Below the pieces are notes generated by a model. The model searched no databases. It worked only from the letters and a program-made list of their open reading frames with translations, and had not been told where the DNA came from. Shown here piece after piece: positions 4,937 through 54,942 of a stretch of DNA of 64,000 nt; the first letter of the stretch is position 1; every line of letters begins with the position of its first letter. Made by a program: the position numbers and the translations under genes. Source of the DNA: a virus; the UHGV virus genome UHGV-0287696; one strand, given 5' to 3'.

Positions 4937-4976
4937 TTTAAGATATATTTCATCTATGTGAGAATTCTCACTTAAC
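4937..4976 (+). promoter_or_regulatory. promoter-like box (divergent copy) with leader hairpin
   Basis: tttaagatatatttcatc...gtgagaattctcac-ttaactaaa; related to the AGATATAT boxes at 18790, 22591, 54647 and 58936; sits about 20 nt upstream of the ATG at 4995. Confidence 0.35.
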
Positions 4977-41000: not shown

Positions 41001-43225
41001 TCAGTATTGGTAGTCAAATCGGCTTTACGTAAACGCCATGCCGCCACGGCATAAGCAGCGTTATTTACCGTGGAACGAAGAAGATAAACGTGGTCGTCAA
41101 CTAACACAACATCGTCGGCTTCTGGCCAAGGATTCCAGGTTTGTTCCACAGTACCGCTGGGGTTGCCATTACGGTACTTAGGCATTGTAACACGACACAC
41201 CACCGTGTGTTTACTGTGGTCCATCGAACCATTGAACAACACCAAATAACGGTTATTGTCAGAACCCAGACAAATAATCGCTTCCTGGCCACCGATCAAT
41301 ATCGCTTTTAAGGTCACCCCAGGGTATTTACTCATCCCAACAGGATGGTATTTCACCGAAGTTTGCTGAGGGTTCACAAACACATTCGACGTATTGATAT
41401 CAGCATAGCCGTAGTAAATAGCCTCTGTACCAGGCACACCATTAGAAGCATTACGTAACGAATAAACTTTACCTTGTTGGAATCCTACAACACCTTTCTG
41501 ATAGGACTGGTTCTTTGTAAAACCTGAATAATTACCGAGTGCCGGAATGGGTAAGAAGTTTTTGTTACCGAACTTCGCCCCACCGACAGTCCACGCAGGT
41601 AAGATGGTATTCAGTTTATCAGAGACTTTCTTAATCTCTTTTGCGAACAACCAGCCTTGACGAGACGTGACGGCTTTATCGCTCGTGGTATCAATCGCAT
41701 CCCACAACTGTAAGATACCATCCACAGTCGCACTGCCAATCGGGACATTATCCAAATCGGCGGTAGTGTGCGTGTGCTCCTTCACACTTTTATTTTTCAG
41801 CACGTTCGCTAACGCTTTTGTTACCGGTTTAGCGATCGGCATGGTGTTATCCATCTTATCGATACCGAAATCGGTTTTCGTTAAGGTTAACACCATTTTA
41901 TCGCCCGTCTTAACAAACCCTTTACCGTTAACCGTGTAGTCATCGTCAACGTACAAGTCTAACCGGTCTTTTAACTCGGTCACCGCCTTTTGGGAAATAG
42001 CAGTGCCTAGTGCTACGGAGGTTGCGATATTCGTAATCGAAAACACCCCATAAACCGACTCGGTTGCTGTGGGAATATTCGCGTTCAACGTTAGCGGGTT
42101 AGACTGCTTCGCTGTACCGTATGGTTTTACGGTGTCTGATGGTTTGAAATAGGCATTTGCTTCAAGTAACGTTACAGACGTCAGGTACATGTTCACCATT
42201 TCTGGTGTAACCAAATACACAGAGTTGTAAACCGGCGCTAATACATCCTGTTCTGTCCCAGAGTGCACCCAAAGCGTATTCAGTCCCGCACTAAATTCAA
42301 CCGCCAAACCCGATTCGTTGTTGTCCTGGTCCGCTTTAATCACTAGCGGTTGCGGTGAGGTAATTAACCACTTATCACCACGGATACTGATGATGTGTCC
42401 GCCTGCGGTTTTAAACGTCAGTTCGTTACCGTTCGTGCTACCCCATCGACCGTAAACAGTGCCGAGGGCTTCACCCATTAACTGATCAACGTCTGATTGC
42501 TCAATACCCGCCGAACCCATCAGCGTAGCCAACTCGTCAATCGTCAGTCCAAACGCTTTTGTCGCGTCGACAGCACGTCCCAAAACCGGAAGGGCACCAA
42601 CATCAGTGGTCGTATACTGGTGTGCGTTAGGATTAAGGTGGTGTTGGTATAACTCCTCGTCGAAAACTTTTTTACCGTTCTCGTAAATCAGGTTAGTGAC
42701 TTCGGTAAACGCTGCATCTAACTCTGTTGAACGTTGAACGATTTTCTTACGGATGTCGTTTAACGCTTTAACAACCTCATCCCTCAGAATAGCTTCTTCT
42801 AAGTTAGCAGGGGGATCGATAGGTTGTATAACCGGTGCATACGCCATTAACTCTGACCAGTCCACGTTACGTGGGTCTTTCAGGTCAGTACGAACTAAGA
42901 ACTTTCCGATTTCAGATTGTGGTACACGATACTGGCGTGCTACCCCTAAAATCTCATATTCGATTTCTGTTGCGGTCAGCAACATAAACCCGCCATAAAT
43001 CTGATCTTGTTCAGCTTCTGCGAGTTCTTTAAAGTAATAGCCTAAATAGTAGTCCAACCCCTCAATCAGAGTACGACGTCCGTTAGGCGCGGTATCGTCG
43101 GCTACTGTGAGTTTTAATCCGATACGATAAAAAGGTCCTTCAGGCGGAATGACCACATTAAATCGGTTAGGGTACGTCGCTGTGCTTAACGTACCGTTAA
43201 ACTGCGCCGCGTCTTCTCTCGGCAT
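38042..43225 (-). CDS. large tail fibre/tailspike-like structural protein
   Basis: 1727 aa; shared N-terminal module PPEGPFYRIGLKLTV...GLDYYLGY; AGGAG Shine-Dalgarno. Confidence 0.75.
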   Translation of the reverse strand: MPREDAAQFNGTLSTATYPNRFNVVIPPEGPFYRIGLKLTVADDTAPNGRRTLIEGLDYYLGYYFKELAEAEQDQIYGGFMLLTATEIEYEILGVARQYRVPQSEIGKFLVRTDLKDPRNVDWSELMAYAPVIQPIDPPANLEEAILRDEVVKALNDIRKKIVQRSTELDAAFTEVTNLIYENGKKVFDEELYQHHLNPNAHQYTTTDVGALPVLGRAVDATKAFGLTIDELATLMGSAGIEQSDVDQLMGEALGTVYGRWGSTNGNELTFKTAGGHIISIRGDKWLITSPQPLVIKADQDNNESGLAVEFSAGLNTLWVHSGTEQDVLAPVYNSVYLVTPEMVNMYLTSVTLLEANAYFKPSDTVKPYGTAKQSNPLTLNANIPTATESVYGVFSITNIATSVALGTAISQKAVTELKDRLDLYVDDDYTVNGKGFVKTGDKMVLTLTKTDFGIDKMDNTMPIAKPVTKALANVLKNKSVKEHTHTTADLDNVPIGSATVDGILQLWDAIDTTSDKAVTSRQGWLFAKEIKKVSDKLNTILPAWTVGGAKFGNKNFLPIPALGNYSGFTKNQSYQKGVVGFQQGKVYSLRNASNGVPGTEAIYYGYADINTSNVFVNPQQTSVKYHPVGMSKYPGVTLKAILIGGQEAIICLGSDNNRYLVLFNGSMDHSKHTVVCRVTMPKYRNGNPSGTVEQTWNPWPEADDVVLVDDHVYLLRSTVNNAAYAVAAWRLRKADLTTNTELEFERVTLTGEMGQFGDNLCLRIGQKTEESQTGQFFTYYPPEARAKWTIGHNFVHGPECNHACAVRDSVIRVNHVPSVWFAAADGTTINFRQWSTSFTIDTLTGRVTLEGAERFPIKVDATRLSYADGSTVETSRKWGGGQANNRCFATYAKPNVSGMMLSCWQTNDADQMPNVTIKSTQGKEFFDYLRYDNPNNTSGEATFTWDKGRGSIYTIGLSHPVGIGGSNKVWLSNPRNRYTIEVEVDPSKPYDVPGYSGYGPNNNRREVDATLYEQLSCMAACMTPEERHGQLNGWYLTKAETFPYRNIYGNFALSSERLTLEEADRQKMIRMIVDGAPSGQANGYANERISAAHQSGNALFALWLLGINTVCEFDLLQVSCMKILSNGRRVLDIYYFMVSPTKENGYLRFNSATFKLVDWFLDLDYGLSYQSLREEAGNKTRRVGQPIFASADGVNFGLWLPYTLTIRNIGDLNALGYAAKYTFNPGSGWTRVPGKSQLRQMAPAHNPESGCYMGAGNWDKMARIFSKADRVFCSGNAYTVEEFVNDTTFSTAGQAVIIAGVETAEGWILYLTEEVRLDFGSNSYTLPTWSVDLSNEFPENHANQTFYVHAALVGSKAQYQIGLEKLPDTSSRLFVGTVTTDKKRIVAINIDKVKRLGRVRELEEHAAVRDQHDVAAAYDRKTGPLQTLVNQPLKAPTASASNGAGYVDGQRWNALSGITTRPKLPIQETYAGYKSIGRVAYENCADQFWQKAVAANVAAATASENSQAATANMKWLGAYTKPTTGANAYLALSLRVRVPGNPGTANRRLKIRLAAPTGITQVRYGLNQSGGTMTEQTVTLTANSYLEKEHAGFKPAEEVRVHATFVIPKNEYDSYRTKFGAVQLIDVETNTVIKQTDIDTPFIVYTDTELAAQSGLVYKAVKGQFHQLPAQPVVIVTDGQTGTTPPVKTSFADGTLTVYVATTYDAVNPAQTRDIDKLQFNLMFTS

Positions 43226-43257
43226 CGTAAAGACTCCTACTTTTAAATAAAATGGAT

Positions 43258-43280
43258 ACCCCTCCCCATTACAGGGAGGG
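43258..43280 (-). terminator. minus-strand hairpin with U-rich tail between large fibre genes
   Basis: cccctcccc-attaca-gggagggg with AT-rich tract 43241-43255; conserved 11-mer at 43285-43295 lies just upstream on the minus strand. Confidence 0.5.
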
Positions 43281-43319
43281 GTTACCTACGGACACACAAC
43301 TGCCCGCAGGCAGCCTGTC

Positions 43320-46300
43320 CTAAGTACGATCCCCTAACTGCTTCCCGTTAAGTTCTCGTTTCAGTACAGCCAAAATCCACTTCCACGCTTTACTCGTGAT
43401 GTGGTACGGATTGCGTTTCTCCATTAAGAATTGACTTTCGCCGCTACGGAGTTCGAAGCTCTGCGCATTGAGTTGGTCTTGGCGAACACCGTTCTCGTCA
43501 GTGACATCTAACGAACAGGTAAAGTTAAGCTCGTAGCCCTCTGGATTATTGCCTGGTGGTTCTAAGACAATATAAATGTCCTGTCCTACACGTAGGTCCT
43601 TTGGCGTAAGGGTAACTGCTTTACCTGTGTCCGCGCTGGTCGAAAGCGCAAACGGCACGCTATCGATAGCTGATACATACGCGTCCTTCCCAGAATCACC
43701 GATAATCACCTTACCCGGCCAGTTACACTTCACCGTTCCTGTCACTTTTGCAACACGGTACTGCTGTTTATCAGCACCTTGTGCAAAGCGTAAAATGAGT
43801 TTATGCCGATACCGGTTTGCGGCAGCTTTGGATGTACTCCACTCATTGTTCCAGGAGGCATGAAGTTCACCTTTCTTGGCCATCAAAGCACCACGAGACA
43901 GCTTACGTGGGAAGAATTGTGCCGGAAGTTGCCCTTCGTGGGAAATCGCTACACTCCCTTGTCCGGTTGGAAGTGCTATTGTTTCCGTAGGGCAATAATT
44001 TAACTCGTACACGTGTGTTGTAGGTTCGATCAATTTCTGATAGTAATCGCCGTCCTTACTGTCCGCTAACCAACCAACGGAAGAGTCCGTATACGATTCG
44101 AACAGTGAACGTAAGTAGTGATACTTATCAATATTGATGTTACCTGTTTTTGGATCAATCAGAGCATGGTTAATAGTGAGGAAACACTTCTCACTCAAAC
44201 CATTAAACGCCAAACCCACACCGTCACCAGTAAAATAGTCTACCAGGTCAAATGGAAGCGTCATTTCTATTTGTCGCAGGTTGATAGTCGTTGAACCAAA
44301 CTGCGAAAAAGATAGCGCTAAACGAAGTACACGAGTATTAACATTATAACGATAACGAATCATCCCACGCGGCGCATGGTTCGCGGAGATCTTATCACCG
44401 TTTGGACCCCACCCAATTAAATCGAGTATCTCGGCGTTTGCTACTTCACCATTAAACAAAACGTCTTTAGTCGTGACTTCAACTGACGTTTCCCTTCCGG
44501 CATCCATCAACATCGAACCGTTATTCAACTCGAAGCTCTTGTGCCAAACTTCAGAAGTCGAACCAGCACCTACACCCACCTTACAAGTTTTACTAGTAAG
44601 GTTAATACGCACATAACGGCGTCCCACTGTACCGCCCTGCGAGCTTGCACACAAAATAAGATCAGGTGCCGCAGACAGTGCCTTGGTCCCTCCAATGTCA
44701 TCAACATCGAAAACGAATGAGCCTTCGAACGTTGGTGCGTTATTTTCCTTCGGGTTAAATGGCGTAAACCAACAATAAGGCGTCGCGCCCTCGGTTGAGA
44801 AAATCAACTCTAAGTCAGATTTAACATTTAATCCGTGGGAATAAGAAAAGAGACCGCGACTTAAGGTACAAAGCGTTCCACCGCTTCCGCTACCTAAGGT
44901 TTTTCGATATATTAAAGCGCGGGGTTCTGGGATAGCACGGTTTAATAACGGCAACCGTGGGTTATCCGTTAACGTCCAGTCGACAGAACTGAGCCCGTGT
45001 GCTTTACGAGCGTCGATGTGCTCACTAACCTCGGTACTTTTCCCGAAATCAAACGTGGTTTCAAAACTCACGGTTTTATTCGAGTAAGATTCACCGGCAA
45101 CAATATCAACGTAGCCGATATAACCACGTTCAGGGTCAACTGCAATACTCTGAATTGGCTCAGTACGCGAATACAGAGAGCCTGTGAGCATGTTAACGTA
45201 CAGATAATGACGAATCCCTACGTGTGTTGTAACAAACTCTTGGAGAAGCTCTACGTGCGTTTCAGGGCCACTGAAATAAACGGGGTAGTCACCGTCGTAA
45301 ATTTCGAATTGCACCGCTGCGGATTTAGCCGTGTCGCTACACTCAGCTTTAACCGCCACGGTGTAGTTTTCAACGTCTGCTGATGTTTCATACACTGCAA
45401 CAAGCGGAGACTGGCCTGTGGCTGCCTGGATACCGTTAATGTAAACTGTAACCGGGCCACCCCCTGCGGCATAAACCCAAAGCTTCGGCTGGCGTGCCCT
45501 TACCCGCGTTTTGGCCAACACAGTAACAACTGACTGGTCACCCATCTGTGAGGCAGTTTTACCTACCGGAACAGATTGGAAACCCATTAGTGGTGGTTCT
45601 TCAATACCTGTCCAGTTAATGCCCTTACCAGTGCTCACTTTCCCCGTAGGCCAAGTCGTCTCAATTTGGTTGTTCGGTGAGAACCAGTTAAACATCGGCG
45701 TAGTTTGCAGGTCAATCGAACCTGTAACGGCGCTATCAGCTTTCGCACCGTTCAGCAAATAGAAATACTTCAAATCTTGGACGGAGATTGCCGTACCCTG
45801 ACTATTAAAGCGCCAGTCTGCGCCTTTTACCGCAGCGAAATCCGTTACCGACCCTTCTTTCGCGTTTGCAATCGCCGCGGCGACCACATCTAAACGCGCC
45901 GAAAGTTCTTTTAAGATGTTCGGTACTACTGCACGGTTTTCAACCAAACCGTTCTGGTTAGTTGCGTAACGGCCGATACCGTAAACGGTTTGCGAGGCTT
46001 TATAAATGCCTAGTTCCGACCAATCGTGGTGGTGGCCTGCATCCGCTAAACCACTAAGTGCCGCATTTAACTCGGTAGACAACGGCTTGTCAACGTCTGC
46101 GGTGTTATCCGCTTGCCCTAACCCCAGATCAGCTTTCGTGATTGTCCTGGAGCCGTCGTTCATCGGCTTACCGTTAATCATGGTCGTTTTAGCCACATAC
46201 CCCGATAAGTCAGTCGAGTATGGTGCTAACGACGCCGGTGTTGCAGCAACCCCAGTCGTTTCTGTACCTTTACCTGTTTTAAGTTTAGCGACGCCTTTTT

Positions 46301-47525
46301 CGGCGGTTGTCGCTTTTGTTGGGTCGATAGTCCCCACGATAGGGTCGGCGCGAGAACCTTTACCGGTAAAGCTAATCCCATTACGACCTTCAATGTACAC
46401 CTTCGAGTCATCAGGGTCGCCACCGCTACCAGAACCCGCATCTGGATCTTGTTGGTATTCCATCAACGCCGTGGTAGTCAGTAACGGGTTACCGTTCAGG
46501 GTGAGTTTGTTCATCCCTAAAGCATCGCCTGTTGACTCGATGCGTAATGTGTTTTTACCGGCACGCCAGTTGATATAGCGTCCTGCACCTGTGCCTTCCA
46601 GATGTCCTACCGCCAATACCACAGAACCGTTGGATTTTAACGTAAAACCATCGTTGGCAAAAATGATTTCGGACTCACCGTTTTTCGAACGGAACTGTGC
46701 GCGGTTTCCTGACACCGTACAGTTAAACACGCCCCGTACTTCCGAAGAAATCCAGTGAGAGATATACGTATCGATAACCGACTGCGGTAAACGAAACGCT
46801 TTCAGCTCATCCGTCAGTGCTTTCAACTTTAACCCGTACGCCATAAAGGTGTCGGGTGTTTTCAAGTTAACAGGATGCGCGTTAATCTGCGCGGATGTGG
46901 TTTCGTGCGGGTTCTTCGCTGCGATATGTGCTGGGTAATTAAATGCTTCGATTTCTTTACCCAACGCAGTCACTAACGCTTTAACTTCAGCTAATTTGTC
47001 TTTAATTAACTGGTTAGCGTCATCGGTTTTCAATTCAATATCGTGAACTGCCGACGCTAAATATTTTTTGTTCAGCAAATCCGCCCAAGACGTTGCCGCA
47101 GGCGTAGCCGGGTATAACGACGGTCTGCCTTCTAATAACAACCAGTCAGCACTGACTGGGTTATTCAAATATTTCACCAGTTCATCGAGAATATCAACAA
47201 ACGGGTCGTAGAACGTACCGCCGAGCATTTGTCCTTCAAAGGTTACGATACCCTTGATGGATGGGTTGATAAGGTGTACCCCACAATACACGTTGGCTGC
47301 TACCGAGTCATCCAGTTCCGTCAGCTGATATTGCAGTTCGTAGTCCACCCCACGACTCAGTGGGGTGGTTGAACCTGGTTGTCTGACGACCAAATCTTCA
47401 AAGAACGGGCGGTGGTCTAAAATCACCACCCGATCGTTGTTGTTCTCTGACCCGATGATACGCTCCTCTAAGAAGTGATTCTCGGCTTTCGTCCCCCGAG
47501 GATCGTAAGGATACGCTTTCATCAA
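43320..47525 (-). CDS. large tail fibre/baseplate-associated structural protein
   Basis: 1401 aa; shared N-terminal module HRPFFEDLVVRQ...GVDYELQYQL; NPHETT motif. Confidence 0.75.
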   Translation of the reverse strand: MMKAYPYDPRGTKAENHFLEERIIGSENNNDRVVILDHRPFFEDLVVRQPGSTTPLSRGVDYELQYQLTELDDSVAANVYCGVHLINPSIKGIVTFEGQMLGGTFYDPFVDILDELVKYLNNPVSADWLLLEGRPSLYPATPAATSWADLLNKKYLASAVHDIELKTDDANQLIKDKLAEVKALVTALGKEIEAFNYPAHIAAKNPHETTSAQINAHPVNLKTPDTFMAYGLKLKALTDELKAFRLPQSVIDTYISHWISSEVRGVFNCTVSGNRAQFRSKNGESEIIFANDGFTLKSNGSVVLAVGHLEGTGAGRYINWRAGKNTLRIESTGDALGMNKLTLNGNPLLTTTALMEYQQDPDAGSGSGGDPDDSKVYIEGRNGISFTGKGSRADPIVGTIDPTKATTAEKGVAKLKTGKGTETTGVAATPASLAPYSTDLSGYVAKTTMINGKPMNDGSRTITKADLGLGQADNTADVDKPLSTELNAALSGLADAGHHHDWSELGIYKASQTVYGIGRYATNQNGLVENRAVVPNILKELSARLDVVAAAIANAKEGSVTDFAAVKGADWRFNSQGTAISVQDLKYFYLLNGAKADSAVTGSIDLQTTPMFNWFSPNNQIETTWPTGKVSTGKGINWTGIEEPPLMGFQSVPVGKTASQMGDQSVVTVLAKTRVRARQPKLWVYAAGGGPVTVYINGIQAATGQSPLVAVYETSADVENYTVAVKAECSDTAKSAAVQFEIYDGDYPVYFSGPETHVELLQEFVTTHVGIRHYLYVNMLTGSLYSRTEPIQSIAVDPERGYIGYVDIVAGESYSNKTVSFETTFDFGKSTEVSEHIDARKAHGLSSVDWTLTDNPRLPLLNRAIPEPRALIYRKTLGSGSGGTLCTLSRGLFSYSHGLNVKSDLELIFSTEGATPYCWFTPFNPKENNAPTFEGSFVFDVDDIGGTKALSAAPDLILCASSQGGTVGRRYVRINLTSKTCKVGVGAGSTSEVWHKSFELNNGSMLMDAGRETSVEVTTKDVLFNGEVANAEILDLIGWGPNGDKISANHAPRGMIRYRYNVNTRVLRLALSFSQFGSTTINLRQIEMTLPFDLVDYFTGDGVGLAFNGLSEKCFLTINHALIDPKTGNINIDKYHYLRSLFESYTDSSVGWLADSKDGDYYQKLIEPTTHVYELNYCPTETIALPTGQGSVAISHEGQLPAQFFPRKLSRGALMAKKGELHASWNNEWSTSKAAANRYRHKLILRFAQGADKQQYRVAKVTGTVKCNWPGKVIIGDSGKDAYVSAIDSVPFALSTSADTGKAVTLTPKDLRVGQDIYIVLEPPGNNPEGYELNFTCSLDVTDENGVRQDQLNAQSFELRSGESQFLMEKRNPYHITSKAWKWILAVLKRELNGKQLGDRT

Positions 47526-47535
47526 AAAAATCTCC

Positions 47536-50500
47536 TTAATCGCGAATGATTACCGCCTGCACTTTATTGTTGGTGTCGATAAACGACATTACGCGCTCCT
47601 TGTTAAGATAAGGAGGTATCGGTAACGCAGCGTAATCCGCCAGGTTGTTATTAAATTCAGTTGCCACTAACGCATTAAGCGTTTCGGGGTCTGAACTGAC
47701 ACCGGTCAATTCCATAACGCGCACACGATTTAATGAGGAATAGTTGCTAATATAGTCTAACAACGTACCATAGACTTTATTCGCGGTTGCGCTGTCTGCC
47801 GTAGAACGGATGTTGGCACGAACTTCATCCTCATAAAGTCCCCCTAAACCGTAGTAAATAGGGGTATACGGATCGTTAACGATAGGTGCGATATTGAACC
47901 CTGTTAGACGGTCAGTTAGAGGGATTTTCTGCGTAGCTCCCCCTGCTGCCGTGCAACTTACGTATTTATCGGTCGCAGATAAAAACACCACGATGGTATA
48001 CGTAGTGCCCGCTAAGGTCAGTGTTGCGTTAAACGTTAATGCGTTGTTTGCAGCACGGGTGTGGGTAAACGTTACGTCAGGTTGTAACGTATTCCACGGT
48101 GCAGGCGTAACACGCTTCGTTGGTGTGAAACCTAACACTACCGATTTCCCGCTACCGAAGTTCAAACCGAACCCTGCGTAACAATATTCACCGTTGCTGT
48201 CAGTTAAACGATAACCACGAGTGATAAGTAACGACAACCGCATAAACTCGCCGTCGGTGTTTTTCCAACAACCTAAAACAGTTTCTAACACCGTGCCGGT
48301 TTTTGCGTTGCTTTCTGTTTCCCAACTGACTCGCATTCCTGCGTTCTTAAAAGCTGGGAACATGTTGTGGATAAACCCGTGTAGGTTATCGCTTACCCCT
48401 TTCGCGTCAAAAATCCACTTGGATGCGAGCTGGTCGTATTTCATCCCGTCTAAAGCTTTATACTGCCCACCGGCAACATAACGCCAATCTGCTTCACCGC
48501 GTACTACTGCCTGGAGTCCAGAAGCCCAGCAAGGCGCGCCTACCGTTAAGTTAGCTAACCCAAGCGTTGCACGTGACGCGGAGCGCTGAATGTGTGCGTT
48601 GTCATCGGCTTTATGATCTTTCAGTTCACGGAAATCACCCAACCGTGTGACATTACGCATCTCCGTAACGAACACCTCAGAAATGTCGTTGACGCCGATC
48701 AAACCCACACGCGTCATGGTATCCGTTTCAGCCTGACTGTAGCTGTCGTGGACAATATACTTCGCTTTGTTGTCAACAATATCAACAAAAATCCCTGCGT
48801 AGATTTCTGTATTCAATTTCGGAAAACGTTCACTGACGTTAATCGTCATCAACGGAACGTCGTACGTTTCACCACCGATAAAATACGTTGAAGCTGGAAG
48901 CGTGACCAGAATTTTGTCTTTGACCGTAAGGTCTATTAAGTCGTTACCAGACTCACCAAAACGTATAATGTCAAGACGTGCCTCCGAGTCAACGCCGCTG
49001 ACAGCGCGCTCCAATTTTTCAATCTGGGAAGTCTGCGCCATTACCACACTCCCATCGAGTGCTAAAGTCGCATCATCCACATCCAGACCAAATTTAATCA
49101 GACCACGTTGCGCTGTGGTTGCGTTCCCAGTACCAAAAGCGGTAAACGGGTGTTGGTGAACTTTAGGCGAGTATTTATCTAACTCCGCACGTTGTGCTGT
49201 AGAAATCGGTAAATCGGCATCGGGCGTATTCGCAACGTTACCTAAACCAAAGGTAATCTTATCGATAGTAACCGAGCTGGTAAGTTGCATGTCGTTAATG
49301 TACGATTTAACTGCAACTAACTTACCGGTGAACTCCGCATCGAGTTTTTCAATCAGTGCTGGCGTTGCTGCAAGGTTTTCAGCGGTACCAAACTCATCGG
49401 TCAACTGCCAAGCTGCCAGAGCTGTTGTATCGGTCGCGGTAGGAAGAATAAAGGTCGCTACGAACGGCGAGGCTTTTATCCCGCTACCGGTGATCGTAAC
49501 CGTTGTTGTCGAGTTTGCGTAGAATAAACCTGTACCACCTGCGGTATTGCCCGGCAGATACGGGGCTACGGTGGTGGGGTCTAAGAGTTTTTTACCACGC
49601 CACAACAATCCTCGGTCATCGGGGTATAGCACAAGCTGGTTAGTACCTGCTTGGAACGTTACGGGGTTGTTACCCACGTTAACATCAGTAGAACCTTGAC
49701 CGATGAACTTAATGGATTTCGGATCAACGACAAACTGAGCGCCTAAACGTGTCTCGTCAACAACATCCGGTGCTTTCTTAATGGTAACCGTGTTACCTTT
49801 GTTTTGCGAACTAATGGTAACGGCGTCGGCAACATTATTGATCAGCGATTTAAAGTGGTGCTGATTCTCTAATGCTTCTAACGCAGCGTCCATGTTATTG
49901 AAGTTAATCCGACCGCTATACGTTTTACTGTTTACGGTAATAACGACGTCAAACACATTCCCTGTACGCTTCAGTTGAAAACGTAGCGTAAAATCCCCAT
50001 CCGGTATTGCCGGATTAGGAGCTTGCGAAATATACCGAACTGCCGGTACCGGACTCCCGTAACCGTGCAACGCCAGTTCGATAGTAAGAGTACCGGACCA
50101 GACTTCACCGCTAATCTCTACGTACTTACCGGAGTTACTACCAGGATTTTCGTAAAAACGTAAACCAACCCTACCGACCGCTTCATTACCAGACGCTGTT
50201 TTACGTCCAGTAACAATAAAGTCAATATCTTGCAGGTTGGCAGGCACCGCATTAAAGTTAGCACTGAAACCGCTTTTCGTTCCTGTGTAACGAAGCGCGC
50301 CGTGATATCTGTGACCACTACTAACATAGCTTTCGCTAAAATAAGGACTCACGTATTTCGACATCGAGACCGGATCAACTTCCGTCGTGAACGAAGTAAA
50401 ACCAGGAAGTGTGGCAATCGTGCCGTTAACGTTCTTGCTCGCCGATTCACGAAGCAGTTTTTTCTGTGCGGTTAACGTTGCTTGTGTTGGGTACTTAGCA

Positions 50501-51858
50501 TTAACGTAATCCGTTAACTGCTGTTTCGTTTTCCCGTAAGCTAACGCGGCATCCGACGCAATACCATTCAGCTCTAACGCACGGATCGGACCCCACGTAT
50601 CGGTGTGCGGGTTGTCCTTACGTGTAACGTGTTCGTGTGCAGGCGCGTTACGATACAGCTGCTCAACTAACTGATGGTATTTGACTATTAACTGGTAGAC
50701 ATCGTTATCGACGTCAGGTTCTGGTGCGCCGGGTAAAGAACGAATTTGAATATAATCGTTTTCGGCCGCATACCAGTTTAAATTAATGTTCGTTTTAAAC
50801 TTCAACCATTTAGCAACATCCGTTTTCGAATATCCTGCCGAGAACTCATCAGGCGGCGTATCGACGTTGAATGTGTAATCCATGGTCTGTTTATTTGTTT
50901 TTACTACGATGACGTAAACACCGTTTCCGGGTTGACGGGTTACACTAAAATCGATATCGTTTTTTAACTCATCGTCAGTTAAACCGTTGATTAACGTATA
51001 ATCGTAGTTTGTTGAACCGCTACCAATAGCGACCGTTAAGACCAGTGAGATTTTGCGCTGTTTTAGCTGCAACCGTAGAATACTTGCACCGCCGTTAGCA
51101 TAACAGAGCATCCAATCGATCTGTTCGTTTGGATTCAATTTCGTCATGTCTGGCAGAATAGCAGGAATTCTGTGTTTCACTGACAGGGCGTAGTCGTTAA
51201 AGGTTGCAGTTTTATAACTCAAGCTATAACGATGACGGGTAGTGTTGTAGGTGAAGCCACCTTTATTGTCGTATACGGCATACTGCTCGGAAGTGATAAC
51301 CTTGCTATTAGCACGGTATTCTAAATCCAGGGTATTGCGTGCGATGGGGTTAAGCCGACTCACGACTTCCCCTAACGAATCGCCTAATCCAGCAATAGCC
51401 TGCATTAACTCCAGTTCACCTTTCCAATTCTCCCAATCGAACTGGATATCGACCGGTGGAAAGTAAACGTCCCCGATGACGGTGTCCCACTGACACGCAG
51501 TCGGGTATTTATCTTTATTGAGTTCGCGTTCTGCGGTAATCTGTTGTTGGGTAGCCTGACCACAACCAACGGCGTGGTAATCTACCGTAAAATTCGATTT
51601 GTATTTGTCATTAACAATCCAAATCATCCCGTGAATGAGATAGGCTGTGCGCAACATACCGGTCTCGTACGGGTGTGTAATAACGTAATCGTCGCCTAAG
51701 GTCAGTGTTTTGCCGCCGCTCTTGACCACCAGGGATGTGGTGAAAAAAGGGGCGTGGGCAGGTACCAACATTCGGTATTTCGTACCAATGACGGCGACCG
51801 CTTCACCGGTTATTTTATTCCCCGGTTTTTTGAAGTGTGGGTCTAAGACGACAGCCAT
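47536..51858 (-). CDS. large tail fibre/baseplate-associated structural protein
   Basis: 1440 aa; shared N-terminal module APFFTTSLVVKSGGKTLTLGDDYVITH; KVHQHPFTAFG motif. Confidence 0.75.
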   Translation of the reverse strand: MAVVLDPHFKKPGNKITGEAVAVIGTKYRMLVPAHAPFFTTSLVVKSGGKTLTLGDDYVITHPYETGMLRTAYLIHGMIWIVNDKYKSNFTVDYHAVGCGQATQQQITAERELNKDKYPTACQWDTVIGDVYFPPVDIQFDWENWKGELELMQAIAGLGDSLGEVVSRLNPIARNTLDLEYRANSKVITSEQYAVYDNKGGFTYNTTRHRYSLSYKTATFNDYALSVKHRIPAILPDMTKLNPNEQIDWMLCYANGGASILRLQLKQRKISLVLTVAIGSGSTNYDYTLINGLTDDELKNDIDFSVTRQPGNGVYVIVVKTNKQTMDYTFNVDTPPDEFSAGYSKTDVAKWLKFKTNINLNWYAAENDYIQIRSLPGAPEPDVDNDVYQLIVKYHQLVEQLYRNAPAHEHVTRKDNPHTDTWGPIRALELNGIASDAALAYGKTKQQLTDYVNAKYPTQATLTAQKKLLRESASKNVNGTIATLPGFTSFTTEVDPVSMSKYVSPYFSESYVSSGHRYHGALRYTGTKSGFSANFNAVPANLQDIDFIVTGRKTASGNEAVGRVGLRFYENPGSNSGKYVEISGEVWSGTLTIELALHGYGSPVPAVRYISQAPNPAIPDGDFTLRFQLKRTGNVFDVVITVNSKTYSGRINFNNMDAALEALENQHHFKSLINNVADAVTISSQNKGNTVTIKKAPDVVDETRLGAQFVVDPKSIKFIGQGSTDVNVGNNPVTFQAGTNQLVLYPDDRGLLWRGKKLLDPTTVAPYLPGNTAGGTGLFYANSTTTVTITGSGIKASPFVATFILPTATDTTALAAWQLTDEFGTAENLAATPALIEKLDAEFTGKLVAVKSYINDMQLTSSVTIDKITFGLGNVANTPDADLPISTAQRAELDKYSPKVHQHPFTAFGTGNATTAQRGLIKFGLDVDDATLALDGSVVMAQTSQIEKLERAVSGVDSEARLDIIRFGESGNDLIDLTVKDKILVTLPASTYFIGGETYDVPLMTINVSERFPKLNTEIYAGIFVDIVDNKAKYIVHDSYSQAETDTMTRVGLIGVNDISEVFVTEMRNVTRLGDFRELKDHKADDNAHIQRSASRATLGLANLTVGAPCWASGLQAVVRGEADWRYVAGGQYKALDGMKYDQLASKWIFDAKGVSDNLHGFIHNMFPAFKNAGMRVSWETESNAKTGTVLETVLGCWKNTDGEFMRLSLLITRGYRLTDSNGEYCYAGFGLNFGSGKSVVLGFTPTKRVTPAPWNTLQPDVTFTHTRAANNALTFNATLTLAGTTYTIVVFLSATDKYVSCTAAGGATQKIPLTDRLTGFNIAPIVNDPYTPIYYGLGGLYEDEVRANIRSTADSATANKVYGTLLDYISNYSSLNRVRVMELTGVSSDPETLNALVATEFNNNLADYAALPIPPYLNKERVMSFIDTNNKVQAVIIRD

Positions 51859-51926
51859 TCTCTACTCCTATAGTCCGTGGGCGTCGAAGTTCATACTATG
51901 ACTTGAATCTATAGAGGAAAAGAGCT

Positions 51927-53189
51927 GTGACTACTGCTTATCAAGTGCGGCCCGACAGCGCTTTTGGCTTCTCTCGAGAGTCCCGTACCTGGGGAGCCAT
52001 CGATGTCACGCAACCCTTAAATACGTTGTGTTCAGACTACCACACCTTTGAGATCGGTTTAAGTGCACTTGGTAAAGACTATACGTTAGTCAGCCAATAC
52101 CATCTTGCCGAACTACAAAACCGAACAGACACTTTACAAGATTGGTTAAATGAAAAAGCCGGAAACGTCATCCCTACTCTAAAAGCCGGATTGCCGAAAC
52201 TCGAATTCGGTTGGGCACATTACCAATCGATTAATGCCGACGTACCCGTTGAAACATATCTGTGTCCGCCTGGGTACCACCACAGTCAAGATTTCAGCTT
52301 AGATGATGCTGATGACGTTGTCATCGTTTGTGAGGACAAGTGGAAGGACAAATACCGTAATAGCGTTCTGTACAACATTAACGGTCAATGGGTACCGCAC
52401 CAGACAGATACCGTAGGTGTCCGATTACCCGGGGCCGGTAAAATCGTACGAAGAGCCTGTACGCCAGATATCGGCTGTATGGTTTTTGGTCAGTTAGGGA
52501 ATGTTAAAACTTACCCCATTGCCAACCTTACCCTAAACAAGCTCGATACTACACGTGACTATTACTCCACGTTAATGATTTCGCTGCCCGAATCTATCAC
52601 GGGAAAAACGGTGGGTTTCGTCATCGGTGGACTGTTACGTTGGTTGCCTCCGGGGGGTTATTTCTCCGACCGCGCGATCATGATTTCTTTACCGAATTTT
52701 GATCTTGCACGGACCGTTCTGGAAACCCGTCGCTATTACGACTGGGACGCCATCGGTGTGGGTGATTTATCAACGCCTACTAATGTCCAACGTATTCGCA
52801 ACCCCGAAACATTAAAGGCACTTTTACTCCACGAGTCTTCGTTTATCTTTACGGTAGATAATCCGTATTTAGAAGAAGAGGTTGTGGGTGTATCGCATAA
52901 CGCAGTTTGGGGACGTTGTTATCTCAAGGACCCTAGCGATCCTGATTCTGAAAAACCATTAGGGTACTTAAATAATCGCTTCGGAAAGACGGTGGGCTAT
53001 TGGCCTACATGGGAGGAGGGTGAGTGGGTATTTAACACCACCGAATTCGACAGTCAAAACTACGTCTTTCGTGAAGCCCGGTGGTATAATCAGAAGAAGA
53101 TTAACGACGCGCAAGCAATCGTCGGTCCATTCGGTCCCTGGGAAAAAGTGTATTTAGAAATGCATCGCTTTAGAGCACGAAAAAAATAA
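51927..53189 (+). CDS. hypothetical protein (divergent from the fibre operon)
   Basis: 420 aa; GTG start with AGAGGAAAAGAG upstream; only 68 bp from the divergent start at 51858. Confidence 0.55.
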   Translation: MTTAYQVRPDSAFGFSRESRTWGAIDVTQPLNTLCSDYHTFEIGLSALGKDYTLVSQYHLAELQNRTDTLQDWLNEKAGNVIPTLKAGLPKLEFGWAHYQSINADVPVETYLCPPGYHHSQDFSLDDADDVVIVCEDKWKDKYRNSVLYNINGQWVPHQTDTVGVRLPGAGKIVRRACTPDIGCMVFGQLGNVKTYPIANLTLNKLDTTRDYYSTLMISLPESITGKTVGFVIGGLLRWLPPGGYFSDRAIMISLPNFDLARTVLETRRYYDWDAIGVGDLSTPTNVQRIRNPETLKALLLHESSFIFTVDNPYLEEEVVGVSHNAVWGRCYLKDPSDPDSEKPLGYLNNRFGKTVGYWPTWEEGEWVFNTTEFDSQNYVFREARWYNQKKINDAQAIVGPFGPWEKVYLEMHRFRARKK

Positions 53190-53194
53190 AGTAA

Positions 53195-53237
53195 CCTCCT
53201 ACCCTCTAAGAGGGTAGGAGTAGCACGTTTTTTTTTT
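53195..53237. terminator. bidirectional terminator between convergent genes
   Basis: A-run, hairpin cctcctaccctc-taag-agggtaggag, T-run. Confidence 0.8.
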
Positions 53238-53240
53238 CGC

Positions 53241-53450
53241 TTAGTCTTTTTTGTAGACAATTGCGTTACCGTGCAGTTTGTTGTTGCCGGAAATACCGAT
53301 AACTTTGAATGCGTCGCCGCCAATTTTTTCAGCTTCAGCAGCCAGCTTACCCGTTACATGATCAACGGTGTCGCCGAAAGCGCTAACGTTACCGATTTTC
53401 TTAAACTCTTCTGGAATATGCTCAGCAGAAGAGAACTCTTTAATAGACAT
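53241..53450 (-). CDS. small hypothetical protein
   Basis: ORF track frame 53241..53468 starts at TTG; ATG at 53450 with GGAGAG upstream gives 69 aa (MSIKEFSSAEH...); flanked by hairpins at 53195-53220 and 53515-53535. Confidence 0.55.
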   Translation of the reverse strand: MSIKEFSSAEHIPEEFKKIGNVSAFGDTVDHVTGKLAAEAEKIGGDAFKVIGISGNNKLHGNAIVYKKD

Positions 53451-53656
53451 AACAGCTCTCCATTTCAAAAGGAAGGTGGTCTAAGACCGACGTGTGTTAC
53501 AACCGAAGCATAAGATAGCTCCTCCCCGTAGGGAGGAGTAGAGTGCGCGAAAAAAGTGGCCTGCTTAACTAAACGATGGGTTTAAGAAAAGTGTTGATAA
53601 AAAGCTTTACCAACGTCAGGTCACAATATATAAACACAACGTAAGAAAAAGGGGAA

Positions 53657-54622
53657 TTATTGCGGAGGTGATGTCGGACCATGTTTACCTTGGTGAATGT
53701 GAACGCTAAAGGTAATACCGGAAATAATGGCATCTTTAACCGTAAAGACACCCACACCCTCACCCGTACCACCGTATTTGAAGTTCTTAGCGACTTCCAA
53801 ATTACCGGTGAACATCGCTTCCTTCCCTTCCTGTTTAAAGTTCGGCGTTTTGAACGTTGTCGAACTGCCCGCTTCCGTTAACCAGGTTTGTGTTTTAAAC
53901 GTAACGGAATTCGCTGCTTCCGTATTGCGGACTTCACATTTTTCATTAATCGTTTTCGTTTCCAGGTTAATAGAACGCTTTGAATAAATGAACGCATCTT
54001 CTTTGTTGATGTTCACTTTTGAAAGCATCGCATTCTCAAACCCGAGATCATCTTCAACCGAGTTAATGTAATACTTGTTTCCTTTATGGTCAACGCACTG
54101 CCACGTACCGTTTGCATTATCAAACTGAAACAACCACGCCGCTTTCTCGCCATTCACCATACTTGTTCTTAGCGTGATATGTTTGTCAATCGTCGAAACG
54201 TTCAACACATACGCATTGGACAAGTCATCCGCCATTTGGTTTTCAGGGTCAGCCGACCACGCATAAACCGCATCTTCTAATCGCTTAACGTTAGCGAAGT
54301 TCAGATCAATCCAAAAATAAATATCGGTTTTCCCCAAACGTAACAAGATAACGTAGTCTTCTCGTTTAACGTCAGGGGAATTAATTCGGTTGGAGTTAAA
54401 CTTCCACCACTTTGCTGTTATCGTGTTACCCGTCTTAATGGTTAGGTTATCTGTTGCACCAGATGTTTCATGCGTCTTTTCAGTTGCTGAAGAAACAGAT
54501 TGCACCACGGTAGGGTTAGCAAAGTTGGTTTCAATTGGTATCACTTTTACCCGATCTGTACCACGGGGTTTGTCTTCCGCGACGATACCAATTGAGAAAA
54601 AATCAACACTGGATTTCTCCAT
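53657..54622 (-). CDS. hypothetical protein, possibly structural
   Basis: 321 aa; AAGGA Shine-Dalgarno; the 11-mer plus hairpin element lies upstream. Confidence 0.55.
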   Translation of the reverse strand: MEKSSVDFFSIGIVAEDKPRGTDRVKVIPIETNFANPTVVQSVSSATEKTHETSGATDNLTIKTGNTITAKWWKFNSNRINSPDVKREDYVILLRLGKTDIYFWIDLNFANVKRLEDAVYAWSADPENQMADDLSNAYVLNVSTIDKHITLRTSMVNGEKAAWLFQFDNANGTWQCVDHKGNKYYINSVEDDLGFENAMLSKVNINKEDAFIYSKRSINLETKTINEKCEVRNTEAANSVTFKTQTWLTEAGSSTTFKTPNFKQEGKEAMFTGNLEVAKNFKYGGTGEGVGVFTVKDAIISGITFSVHIHQGKHGPTSPPQ

Positions 54623-54646
54623 CGGGACGTTCCTTAGATCGGAATT

Positions 54647-54677
54647 GATTTCAGATATATTTTACTTAAGTGAATAG
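54647..54677 (+). promoter_or_regulatory. promoter-like box GATTTCAGATATATTTTACTTAAGTGAATAG
   Basis: fourth copy of the AGATATAT box family, in a divergent intergenic region. Confidence 0.4.
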
Positions 54678-54710
54678 GGACTGAACTGGTACTTCAGTCC
54701 CTACGGACAC
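54677..54710 (-). promoter_or_regulatory. conserved 11-mer GTGTCCGTAGG (minus-strand sense) plus hairpin upstream of a minus-strand gene
   Basis: cctacggacac at 54700-54710 matches 43285-43295 exactly; hairpin gggactgaa-ctggtac-ttcagtccc. Confidence 0.45.
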
Positions 54711-54817
54711 GTTACCCTTTTAGTACCTTTCGTTAAAGGTTACTAAAAATTACATTATGTCCCTTTATTCTGCTACTCGGGATACCGGTAGGGGGTAGGG
54801 GGCATTATGTATACGGA

Positions 54818-54825: not shown

Positions 54826-54942
54826 GCGGAGGTATACGGAGTATACCGACATACTCTTCCCAGAGGAACGTAGTGACTTCCTTATACCTCTTTTACAATC
54901 CATAATAATAGCCTTCCCTTCATTGGGATTAGTGAGTAAATC

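What the first reader, a model, noticed from the sequence alone, without database searches (positions are those of the whole stretch)
43258..54710. Exact 11-mer GTGTCCGTAGG followed by a hairpin upstream of two minus-strand structural genes
On the minus strand the 11-mer then a GC hairpin then an AT-rich tract then a Shine-Dalgarno precede the starts at 43225 and 54622. An exact 11-mer recurring by chance in 64 kb is unlikely (expected about 0.03), and the matching architecture suggests a late/structural promoter element or an RNA processing and stabilising site.
Basis: seen in the sequence. Interest (0 to 1): 0.55.

Follow-up and report, generated by a model that had tools for sequence, protein, structure and literature searches.

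The report
Chance 11-mer linking two unrelated elements
The repeated 11-letter word is real but is most likely a coincidence: one copy lies in a conserved folded RNA with a terminator-type hairpin inside a jumbo-phage late operon, and the other lies beside an early promoter that points the opposite way.

Summary
GTGTCCGTAGG is present exactly at 43285-43295 and 54700-54710 (minus strand), and a hairpin follows each copy. The recurrence is not beyond chance. The window holds 704 direct repeats of 11 nt or more, and about 1.8 shared 11-mers are expected among its intergenic regions alone.

The window is a ~225-kb jumbo phage related to SPN3US and phiEaH2.

Site 1 lies between two giant virion-protein genes. 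Its core, GTCCGTAGG, is the 3' strand of a helix conserved with compensatory changes across five phage groups. A terminator-type hairpin follows. The same strand can instead pair with the stop-codon region. The element is single-copy in the window and in the whole SPN3US genome.

At site 2 the "AT-rich tract" is the reverse complement of a plus-strand early-promoter-like motif (AGATATATWTTAC). The window has five copies, and each is followed by a hairpin. In close relatives the 11-mer reads GTGCCYATAGG at site 2, while site 1 is unchanged.

The likely late-promoter core here is TAGTATG, and neither site has it.

Verdict: no shared late-promoter or processing motif. These are two ordinary elements, and the site-1 RNA fold is a modestly interesting candidate, absent from Rfam.

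The parts
43285..43295 (-). 11-mer copy 1 (GTGTCCGTAGG). Its core GTCCGTAGG (43285-43293) is the 3' strand of helix P2.
43223..43324 (-). Whole conserved intercistronic element. It runs from the stop codon of the 1401-aa gene (43320-43322) to the start of the 1727-aa gene (43225). There is a single copy in the window.
   Evidence: Covariance model R1 scores 85.5 bits with E about 1e-15. Orthologues were found in 5 phage groups.
43301..43312 (-). 5' strand of helix P2 (core CCTGCGGGC, 43302-43310). It pairs with 43283-43294.
   Evidence: 97.9% of cells are paired in 16 sequences, 3 pairs change on both sides, and slid controls give 19-40%. It is also the RNAalifold consensus and the MFE structure of the window sequence.
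43300..43313 (-). Hairpin A (CTGCC tgcg GGCAG). It is mutually exclusive with P2.
   Evidence: 100% paired, and 4 of 5 pairs change on both sides (on a hand-made alignment).
43316..43320 (-). 5' strand of helix P1 (GGACA). It overlaps the last base of the stop codon and pairs with TGTCC at 43290-43294 inside the 11-mer.
   Evidence: 92% paired, and 3 pairs change on both sides. It appears in the centroid structure.
43258..43282 (-). Hairpin B (ACCCCTCCC tgtaatg GGGAGGGGT), a terminator-type stem-loop.
   Evidence: Flagged as terminator-like. 97-100% paired with compensatory changes. It resembles the generic terminators of the window and of SPN3US, and the phiKZ terminator motif (PMC10914365).
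43245..43257 (-). U-rich tail ATCCATTTTATTT. In most relatives it reads TCCGTTTTA and can pair with the stop-codon region (helix P0). P0 is weak in the window's own lineage.
   Evidence: P0 86% paired, little covariation
54700..54710 (-). 11-mer copy 2. It is a spacer (GTGTCCG) plus the first bases of the site-2 hairpin stem (TAGG). It is not conserved in close relatives.
54675..54703 (.). Site-2 hairpin (TAGGGACTGAA, a 7-nt loop, TTCAGTCCCTA). It lies 10 nt downstream of the plus-strand promoter-like motif. Its loop is inverted in near-identical relatives.
   Evidence: 98.6% paired and 3 pairs change on both sides in 6 sequences. Folds. Not terminator-like on either strand.
54643..54673 (+). 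Early-promoter-like element (core AGATATATTTTAC, 54653-54665).
   Evidence: Repeat families D3 and D5. Five copies in the window, at 4941, 18793, 22596, 54653 and 58941, all on the plus strand and each followed by a hairpin. Six copies in SPN3US, all on the plus strand and intergenic. 38 nt are identical to phiEaH2.
51892..51898 (-). TAGTATG, the candidate late promoter of the operon that contains site 1. It lies 40 nt upstream of the 1440-aa gene.
   Evidence: In SPN3US 7 of 9 copies are intergenic where 0.5 are expected, and they lie 20-45 nt upstream of the tail sheath, baseplate and giant virion protein genes.

Best explanation
The two copies of the 11-mer belong to two unrelated elements, and the identity is a coincidence.

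Site 1 is a conserved, structured stretch of about 100 nt of late mRNA between two giant virion-protein genes.
- The late operon most likely starts at the TAGTATG motif near 51898. It runs through the 1440-aa, 1401-aa, 1727-aa and 401-aa genes to the terminator at 36738-36801.
- At site 1 the RNA forms helix P2, whose 3' strand is GUCCGUAGG.
- Immediately downstream comes a terminator-type hairpin with a U-rich tail.
- The 1727-aa gene has no promoter motif of its own. The hairpin therefore most likely acts as a leaky terminator and/or a 3'-end protecting structure that sets the relative amounts of upstream and downstream message.
- The P2 3' strand can alternatively pair with the stop-codon region (P1) while its partner closes into hairpin A. 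The element can thus adopt two nearly isoenergetic folds.

Site 2 is the start of a plus-strand early transcription unit.
- It has an AT-rich promoter-like motif of the kind the virion RNA polymerase uses in related jumbo phages.
- A leader stem-loop follows, as after every other copy of that motif.
- The complement of the 11-mer is the unconstrained spacer just after that stem-loop.

Shown: the sequences, their conservation, base-pair covariation, copy number and strand bias.
Inferred: promoter activity, termination or stabilisation, and any role for the two folds.
For: Chance:
- 704 direct repeats of at least 11 nt in the window.
- 1.8 shared intergenic 11-mers expected, with a 0.75 probability of at least one.

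Site 2:
- The 11-mer varies at 3 of 11 positions in close relatives, while the adjacent promoter motif and hairpin stem are kept.
- The same contigs keep the site-1 copy unchanged.
- The whole module is absent from the orthologous intergenic region of phiEaH2, SPN3US and Machinavirus.
- The AT-rich tract matches a 5-copy plus-strand family that is conserved in SPN3US and phiEaH2. A hairpin follows each copy.
- The review PMC7598289 states that RNAP-encoding jumbo phages have a conserved AT-rich motif of about 10 nt at early promoters.

Site 1:
- Synteny and the element are conserved in Seoulvirus, Erskinevirus, Machinavirus, Wellingtonvirus and the window's own clade.
- P2 is 97.9% paired, with CG/UA, GC/AU and GC/AU exchanges.
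- P2 plus hairpin B is the RNAalifold consensus.
- Pairing is better on the gene-sense strand: P2 97% against 84%.
- The window sequence folds at -41.5 kcal/mol, z = -4.7.
- P1 and hairpin A also covary.
- The two folds lie within 0.5-5 kcal/mol of each other in 11 orthologues.
- The covariance model finds one copy in the window, one in the whole SPN3US genome and nothing at site 2.
- GTCCGTAGG occurs once in SPN3US.
- Hairpin B is scored terminator-like.
- It resembles the generic terminators of these phages and the phiKZ terminator motif (PMC10914365).

Late promoter:
- TAGTATG is enriched upstream of late genes and is absent from both sites.
Against: No transcript ends are available. Promoter activity, termination and read-through are therefore all inferred.

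An exact 11-mer that sits next to a hairpin in both places is rarer than a bare 11-mer match, although that criterion was chosen after the fact.

The site-2 hairpin is a perfect palindrome in its stem, so it gives no strand information. If the baseplate gene is transcribed from the GAGTATG at 54850-54856, the hairpin and the 11-mer would also lie in a 228-nt minus-strand 5' UTR.

The alignment used for P1, hairpin A and hairpin B was made by hand and leans towards the structure. Helix P0 has little covariation and is broken in the window's own lineage.

The tail after hairpin B is U-rich rather than a clean U-run.
Confidence: 0.75

Rival explanations
1. The 11-mer is a DNA motif of a late or structural promoter recognised by the phage non-virion RNA polymerase.
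For: Both copies lie upstream of structural genes on the gene-sense strand. Late promoters of these phages are poorly defined (PMC7598289).
Against: There are only two copies in 64 kb that hold many structural genes. There is one copy in the whole SPN3US genome. The word is not conserved at site 2. At site 1 the sequence changes together with its pairing partner, which is the signature of an RNA helix and not of protein recognition. There is no TATG core, and the enriched late-gene motif is TAGTATG. The distances to the start codon differ, 59 against 77 nt.
Confidence: 0.03
2. The 11-mer plus hairpin is a shared RNA processing or stabilising signal, for example a target of one endoribonuclease or RNA-binding protein, present in both late mRNAs.
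For: Both copies would be transcribed on the minus strand if the baseplate mRNA starts upstream, at the GAGTATG at 54850-54856. Both are next to stable, covarying hairpins.
Against: Relatives change the site-2 word at 3 of 11 positions and leave the site-1 word untouched. At site 1 the word is base-paired, and at site 2 it is half spacer and half stem. There is no third copy. Chance fully accounts for the match.
Confidence: 0.06
3. Site 1 is a functional two-state RNA switch. The 11-mer core pairs either with the stop-codon region (P1, with hairpin A) or with the hairpin-A loop (P2). The state tunes termination at hairpin B, 3'-end protection, or translation of the 1727-aa gene.
For: Both mutually exclusive pairings show compensatory changes. 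They are within 0.5-5 kcal/mol of each other in all 11 orthologues tested. In the window the MFE structure is one fold and the centroid is the other.
Against: Neither fold touches hairpin B or the Shine-Dalgarno sequence, so no output is visible. The P1/hairpin-A alignment was fitted by hand. Nested repeats can give two folds without any function. Derbicusvirus relatives lack the spacer altogether. If transcription takes place in a phage nucleus (my own knowledge of this phage family, not tested here), ribosome-coupled switching is unlikely.
Confidence: 0.2
4. The site-2 hairpin works on the minus strand, in the 5' UTR of the baseplate mRNA, and not as the leader of a plus-strand early transcript.
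For: The stem is a perfect palindrome. A TATG-containing candidate promoter lies 228 nt upstream on the minus strand and is conserved in the clade. The G54704-T54674 pair that extends the stem is a G-U pair only on the minus strand.
Against: Every other copy of the plus-strand promoter-like motif, in the window and in SPN3US, is also followed within about 10 nt by a hairpin. The loop flips orientation between near-identical genomes, so its sequence is not strand-specific. The two roles are not mutually exclusive.
Confidence: 0.2

Closest known systems
Intrinsic terminators of phiKZ-like jumbo phages (conserved motif BCCYCCCCHWWDGGGRRGGBYTTATKYYGT; Putzeys et al. 2024, PMC10914365)
   Same: Hairpin B is a C-run/G-run stem followed by a TTAT-containing U-rich tail. 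It sits in an intergenic region just after a stop codon. Many similar hairpins occur in the window and in SPN3US.
   Different: Site 1 carries an extra conserved upstream module (P1, hairpin A and P2) that is unique in the genome. It sits inside an operon whose downstream gene has no promoter motif, so it must be leaky. Termination was not measured.
Early promoters of the virion RNA polymerase in RNAP-encoding jumbo phages (phiKZ, AR9; PMC7598289, PMC8244752)
   Same: A strongly conserved AT-rich motif of about 12 nt with A/T-rich sequence upstream. It is multi-copy, always co-directional with blocks of small genes, and conserved between related phages.
   Different: The sequence (TTTCAGATATATATTACYTAGGTGAG) is specific to this phage group. 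No start site or timing was mapped here. The invariable hairpin just downstream was not mentioned in the passages I read.
phiKZ late promoters (core T-3 A T G+1; PMC7598289)
   Same: This phage group has a TATG-containing motif (TAGTATG) enriched 20-45 nt upstream of late genes.
   Different: The 11-mer contains no TATG and is not that motif. Neither 11-mer site has TAGTATG.
Attenuator-type alternative RNA pairings and intercistronic hairpins that set mRNA stoichiometry (for example T7 RNase III sites and 3' stabilising hairpins; from my own knowledge)
   Same: One strand has two competing partners upstream of a terminator-type hairpin, in an intercistronic position in a long operon.
   Different: Neither fold sequesters the terminator stem or the ribosome-binding site. 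The helices are too short for a classical RNase III site. No trigger is known.

Membership tests
Recurrent promoter or regulatory DNA motif of late (structural) genes | Recurs upstream of several genes of the class | tested here: not met
   Two copies in the 64-kb window and no other intergenic copy of the 7-9 nt core. One copy of GTCCGTAGG in the whole SPN3US genome.
Recurrent promoter or regulatory DNA motif of late (structural) genes | Conserved at orthologous positions in relatives | tested here: not met
   Site 1 is conserved. Site 2 reads GTGCCTATAGG or GTGCCCATAGG in close relatives and is absent from phiEaH2, SPN3US and Machinavirus.
Recurrent promoter or regulatory DNA motif of late (structural) genes | Fixed position relative to the gene start, and resemblance to the known late core (TATG) | tested here: not met
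   59 against 77 nt to the ATG. No TATG in the word. The enriched late-gene motif is TAGTATG and lies elsewhere (PMC7598289).
Intrinsic (factor-independent) terminator | G+C-rich stem-loop followed at once by a U-rich tail, downstream of a co-oriented gene | tested here: met
   Met at site 1 only: 43258-43282 plus its tail, 38 nt after the stop codon. The site-2 hairpin is not listed on either strand and has no co-oriented gene upstream.
Intrinsic (factor-independent) terminator | Transcript 3' ends map to the tail | not testable with these tools
   No RNA data are available.
Virion-RNAP early promoter of jumbo phages | Highly conserved AT-rich motif of about 10 nt, in many copies, co-directional with downstream operons, conserved among relatives | tested here: met
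   Five copies in the window and six in SPN3US, all on the plus strand and intergenic. 38 nt are identical to phiEaH2.
Virion-RNAP early promoter of jumbo phages | Start site about 10 nt downstream, early and independent of host RNAP | not testable with these tools
   No RNA data are available.
Conserved structured cis-acting RNA | Helices kept by compensatory changes, better than slid controls, better on one strand, more stable than shuffles | tested here: met
   P2 is 97.9% paired against 19-40% when slid. P2 and hairpin B are 97% paired on the model alignment. RNAalifold gives the same consensus. Sense against antisense pairing is 97% against 84%. z = -4.7.
Conserved structured cis-acting RNA | Belongs to a described Rfam family | tested here: not met
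   No match at gathering score in the window. Only chance-level matches at either site.
Two-state RNA switch or attenuator | Two mutually exclusive pairings, each with covariation and of similar energy | tested here: met
   The P1/hairpin-A alignment was hand-made.
Two-state RNA switch or attenuator | An output domain (terminator stem or ribosome-binding site) whose pairing depends on the state | tested here: inconclusive
   Hairpin B and the Shine-Dalgarno sequence are outside both alternatives. Only the weakly supported helix P0 links the stop-codon region to the tail.

The most novel reading that the evidence does not exclude
Site 1 is a conserved two-state RNA switch in the late operon, and its switch strand is the 11-mer core. 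In the window's lineage the early plus-strand leader RNA made from site 2 carries, just 3' of its stem-loop, an 11-nt perfect antisense (CCUACGGACAC) to that strand. It could act in trans on the late mRNA to shift the fold. If so, an early transcript would tune a late structural operon. The evidence does not exclude this. In relatives, two of the three changed positions would still pair through G-U, but that is no better than chance. The switch also exists in genera that lack the site-2 module, so any trans effect would be a lineage-specific addition.
Probability: 0.04. Interest if true: 0.7.

Novelty: new member of a known kind. Interest (0 to 1): 0.27.

Why it matters
As a shared motif the finding dissolves, which avoids chasing a false late-promoter signal.

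The follow-up does give three usable landmarks for a poorly mapped group of jumbo phages (SPN3US, phiEaH2, Machinavirus, Wellingtonvirus and an unnamed ~225-kb clade known only from metagenomes):
- a well-defined early-promoter-like motif with an obligatory leader hairpin;
- a strong late-promoter candidate, TAGTATG;
- a single-copy, deeply conserved structured RNA with two competing folds between two giant virion-protein genes.

The last could be a simple test case for how these phages set expression levels within long late operons.

Tried and rejected
- A shorter shared core (TCCGTA, GTCCGTA, TCCGTAG) as a recurrent motif. All other copies lie inside genes and show no pattern.
- CCGTATAC looked over-represented (10 copies against about 2 expected). 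It is scattered in coding sequence and was picked after the fact.
- Rfam: nothing at either site.
- Read-through of the TAG stop codon at site 1: the extension is not conserved in frame (by eye).
- A palindromic operator for a dimeric protein at site 1. The spacing between the half-sites varies from 4 to 12 nt, and G-U pairs work only on the sense strand.
- An RNase III site: the helices are too short.
- A closing helix P0 that would make a three-way junction. It is predicted in 13 of 15 orthologues, but it has little covariation and is broken in the window's lineage.
- Trans pairing between the two sites: no statistical support.
- A full-text literature search for the promoter word TATATTAC returned only unrelated papers.
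- No paper with mapped SPN3US promoters was found.
- The MAFFT alignment could not hold P1 and hairpin B in register, so an N-padded hand alignment (A3) and a model-based realignment (A5) were used instead.

Full report
**Observation.** GTGTCCGTAGG occurs exactly twice in the window, both times on the minus strand, at 43285-43295 and 54700-54710. A third site has one mismatch and lies inside a gene on the other strand. Read on the minus strand, each copy is followed by a G+C-rich hairpin, an A/T-rich stretch, a Shine-Dalgarno sequence and a start codon, at 43225 and 54622. The two genes are a 1727-aa member of a family of giant virion proteins and a baseplate assembly protein. The description is accurate.

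**Context.** The window comes from a jumbo phage.
- Gene order from 36.8 to 62 kb is the same as in Erwinia phage phiEaH2 and Salmonella phage SPN3US.
- No close relative is in the phage collection.
- Five IMG/VR contigs of up to 225 kb are 93-100% identical in the neighbouring proteins.

**Chance.**
- The window holds 704 direct repeats of at least 11 nt.
- When the 39 intergenic regions (3.6 kb) are shuffled, they share on average 1.8 direct and 1.9 inverted 11-mers. 75% of shuffles give at least one direct match.
- The intergenic words that are really repeated are others: a promoter-like family, a ribosome-binding context and T-runs.
- The identity between the two sites is exactly 11 nt.

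**Site 2.**
- The "AT-rich tract" (54643-54673) is the reverse complement of a plus-strand element, TTTCAGATATATWTTACYTARGTGA.
- That element occurs five times in the window (4941, 18793, 22596, 54653, 58941), always on the plus strand and always upstream of plus-strand genes.
- The same element occurs in phiEaH2, where 38 nt are identical. It occurs six times in the complete SPN3US genome, all intergenic and all on the plus strand.
- This is what the literature describes for early promoters of the virion RNA polymerase in such phages: a conserved AT-rich motif of about 10 nt that can be found bioinformatically upstream of early operons (PMC7598289; phiKZ in PMC8244752).
- Every copy is followed within about 10 nt by a stem-loop.
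- The hairpin is kept by compensatory changes in six related sequences: 98.6% paired, with 3 pairs changed on both sides. It includes the last 4-5 nt of the 11-mer.
- The other 6-7 nt of the 11-mer are a spacer. In close relatives the word reads GTGCCTATAGG or GTGCCCATAGG. The same contigs keep GTGTCCGTAGG at site 1.
- phiEaH2, SPN3US and Machinavirus lack the whole promoter-hairpin module at this position. Their intergenic region is about 180 nt against 320 nt here.
- The hairpin is not terminator-like on either strand.

**Site 1.** The 94-nt spacer between the 1401-aa and 1727-aa genes is conserved in Seoulvirus, Erskinevirus, Machinavirus, Wellingtonvirus and the window's clade. Derbicusvirus has only 3-4 nt there. 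A Vibrio phage has a different terminator-like hairpin at that position.

- *Helix P2.* The core GTCCGTAGG is not conserved as a word. It becomes GTCCGCAAG, GTTCGCAAG, ACCCGCAAG or GTCCGTAAG in other groups. Each time a stretch 12-25 nt upstream changes to stay complementary: CCTACGG, CTTGCGG, CTTGCGA, CTTGCGGG, CTTACGGAC. On an ordinary MAFFT alignment of 16 sequences this helix is 97.9% paired, with three pairs changed on both sides. Controls with the partner slid by 1-3 columns give 19-40%.
- *Consensus and stability.* RNAalifold predicts P2 plus the following hairpin B as the consensus. Pairing is better on the gene-sense strand, P2 97% against 84%. The window sequence folds 4.7 standard deviations better than shuffles.
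- *Hairpin B.* Hairpin B (43258-43282) with its tail ATCCATTTTATTT is scored terminator-like. It looks like the many other terminator-type hairpins of the window and of SPN3US, and like the conserved phiKZ terminator motif (PMC10914365).
- *Copy number.* A covariance model of the element finds exactly one copy in the window (85.5 bits), one in the whole SPN3US genome, and nothing at site 2. GTCCGTAGG occurs once in SPN3US.

**A second fold at site 1.**
- The 5' half of the core (GTCC) can instead pair with GGAC at the stop codon (helix P1), while the P2 partner closes on itself (hairpin A).
- These helices also show compensatory changes: P1 is 92% paired and hairpin A 100%, with 3 and 4 pairs changed on both sides. 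That alignment was made by hand.
- The two folds lie within 0.5-5 kcal/mol of each other in all 11 orthologues tested.
- In the window the minimum-energy structure is one fold and the centroid is the other.
- A further helix, P0, between the stop-codon region and the tail would close a three-way junction. It is predicted in 13 of 15 orthologues. It has little covariation and is broken in the window's lineage.
- No state-dependent output is visible, because hairpin B and the Shine-Dalgarno sequence lie outside both alternatives.

**What late promoters look like here.**
- TAGTATG is almost confined to intergenic DNA. In SPN3US 7 of 9 copies are intergenic where 0.5 are expected.
- Those copies lie 20-45 nt upstream of the tail sheath, baseplate and giant virion protein genes, among others.
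- In the window both copies are intergenic, at 51898 and 35704 on the minus strand.
- The motif contains the TATG core of phiKZ late promoters (PMC7598289). Neither 11-mer site has it.
- The copy at 51898 precedes the 1440-aa gene. The next terminator-type hairpin with a long T-run is at 36738-36801. Site 1 therefore lies in the middle of a late operon of about 15 kb, and the 1727-aa gene has no promoter motif of its own.

**Mechanism.**
- Most likely (inferred), site 1 is a leaky terminator and/or a 3'-end protecting structure within the late operon. The upstream module may tune it.
- Most likely (inferred), site 2 is the promoter and leader hairpin of an early plus-strand unit.
- If the baseplate gene is transcribed from the GAGTATG at 54850-54856, which is conserved in this clade, the site-2 hairpin would also lie in a 228-nt minus-strand 5' UTR. 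The two roles are not exclusive.

**Comparison and novelty.** Both elements are members of known kinds: a phiKZ-type terminator hairpin, and a jumbo-phage early promoter. The shared 11-mer is not a motif. The P1/hairpin-A/P2 module is not in Rfam and is a candidate new structured RNA of modest interest.

**Limits.**
- No RNA data are available.
- Only 64 kb of this phage's genome could be scanned. The genome-wide check was done on SPN3US.
- Part of the covariation evidence rests on structure-guided alignments.
- The covariance model's E-values are rough.

Noticed in passing
window 51892-51898 (-), 35698-35704 (-); SPN3US genome (L117-L121): TAGTATG is almost exclusively intergenic. In SPN3US 7 of 9 copies are intergenic where 0.5 are expected. 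They lie 20-45 nt upstream of late genes (tail sheath, baseplate, giant virion protein). It is a strong candidate for the late-promoter core of this phage group and contains the phiKZ TATG.
   Followed up: partly
window 54686-54692; L087, L088, L089, L090: The 7-nt loop of the site-2 hairpin is inverted between the window (GTACCAG) and an otherwise identical IMG/VR contig (CTGGTAC). It is also inverted between L088 (TTCGCAC) and L089/L090 (GTGCGAG). This indicates repeated flip-flop inversion within a hairpin.
   Followed up: partly
L088, L089, L090, L097 (upstream of the baseplate gene); window 54711-54760: Close relatives carry a small plus-strand ORF just downstream of the site-2 early promoter, for example MSTEKKSGLDEVIELFKRYNPAIPR, together with a second hairpin (CGTTTC..GAAACG). 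The window and L087 have lost both. In L097 the homology with the window breaks exactly at the 5' edge of the 11-mer.
   Followed up: partly
window 54826-54850 (-) and 54780-54800 (-): A covarying hairpin reads GTCGGTATAC-TCC-GTATACC-TCCG here, GGTGACcgttGTCACC in phiEaH2 and GGTATCCtacGGATACC in SPN3US. It is followed by a conserved C-rich box (CCCCCTACCCCC) in the divergent region upstream of the baseplate gene. Its function is unknown.
   Followed up: no
window 4941, 18793, 22596, 54653, 58941 (+): Every copy of the early-promoter-like motif is followed by YTARGTGAG and a stem-loop within about 10 nt. The same holds for the six SPN3US copies. This suggests an obligatory structured 5' end on early transcripts.
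   Followed up: partly
window 25420-25443 and 61258-61281 (+); also 20182 and 56279: The exact 24-mer TTTACCTAAAGGAGTATTAAAATG is shared by two gene starts, with near-copies at two more. This is a conserved translation-initiation context or part of a middle-promoter-like element.
   Followed up: no
window 10992-15590 (+), repeats at 14045-14313: A 1532-aa ORF contains 120-nt tandem-like repeats. Segments of it are 84-94% identical to Yersinia phage vB_YpM_39 and E. coli phage-plasmid CMS-2020a. It is probably an exchanged receptor-binding module, which hints at an enterobacterial host.
   Followed up: no
window 35930-36540 (-): 12-nt periodic repeats (ACAGCCACCAGA-like) run through two adjacent 132-aa ORFs. 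These are low-complexity repeat proteins in the late region.
   Followed up: no
window, both strands: CCGTATAC/GTATACGG occurs 10 times against about 2 expected, mostly inside genes. It was picked after the fact and not pursued.
   Followed up: partly
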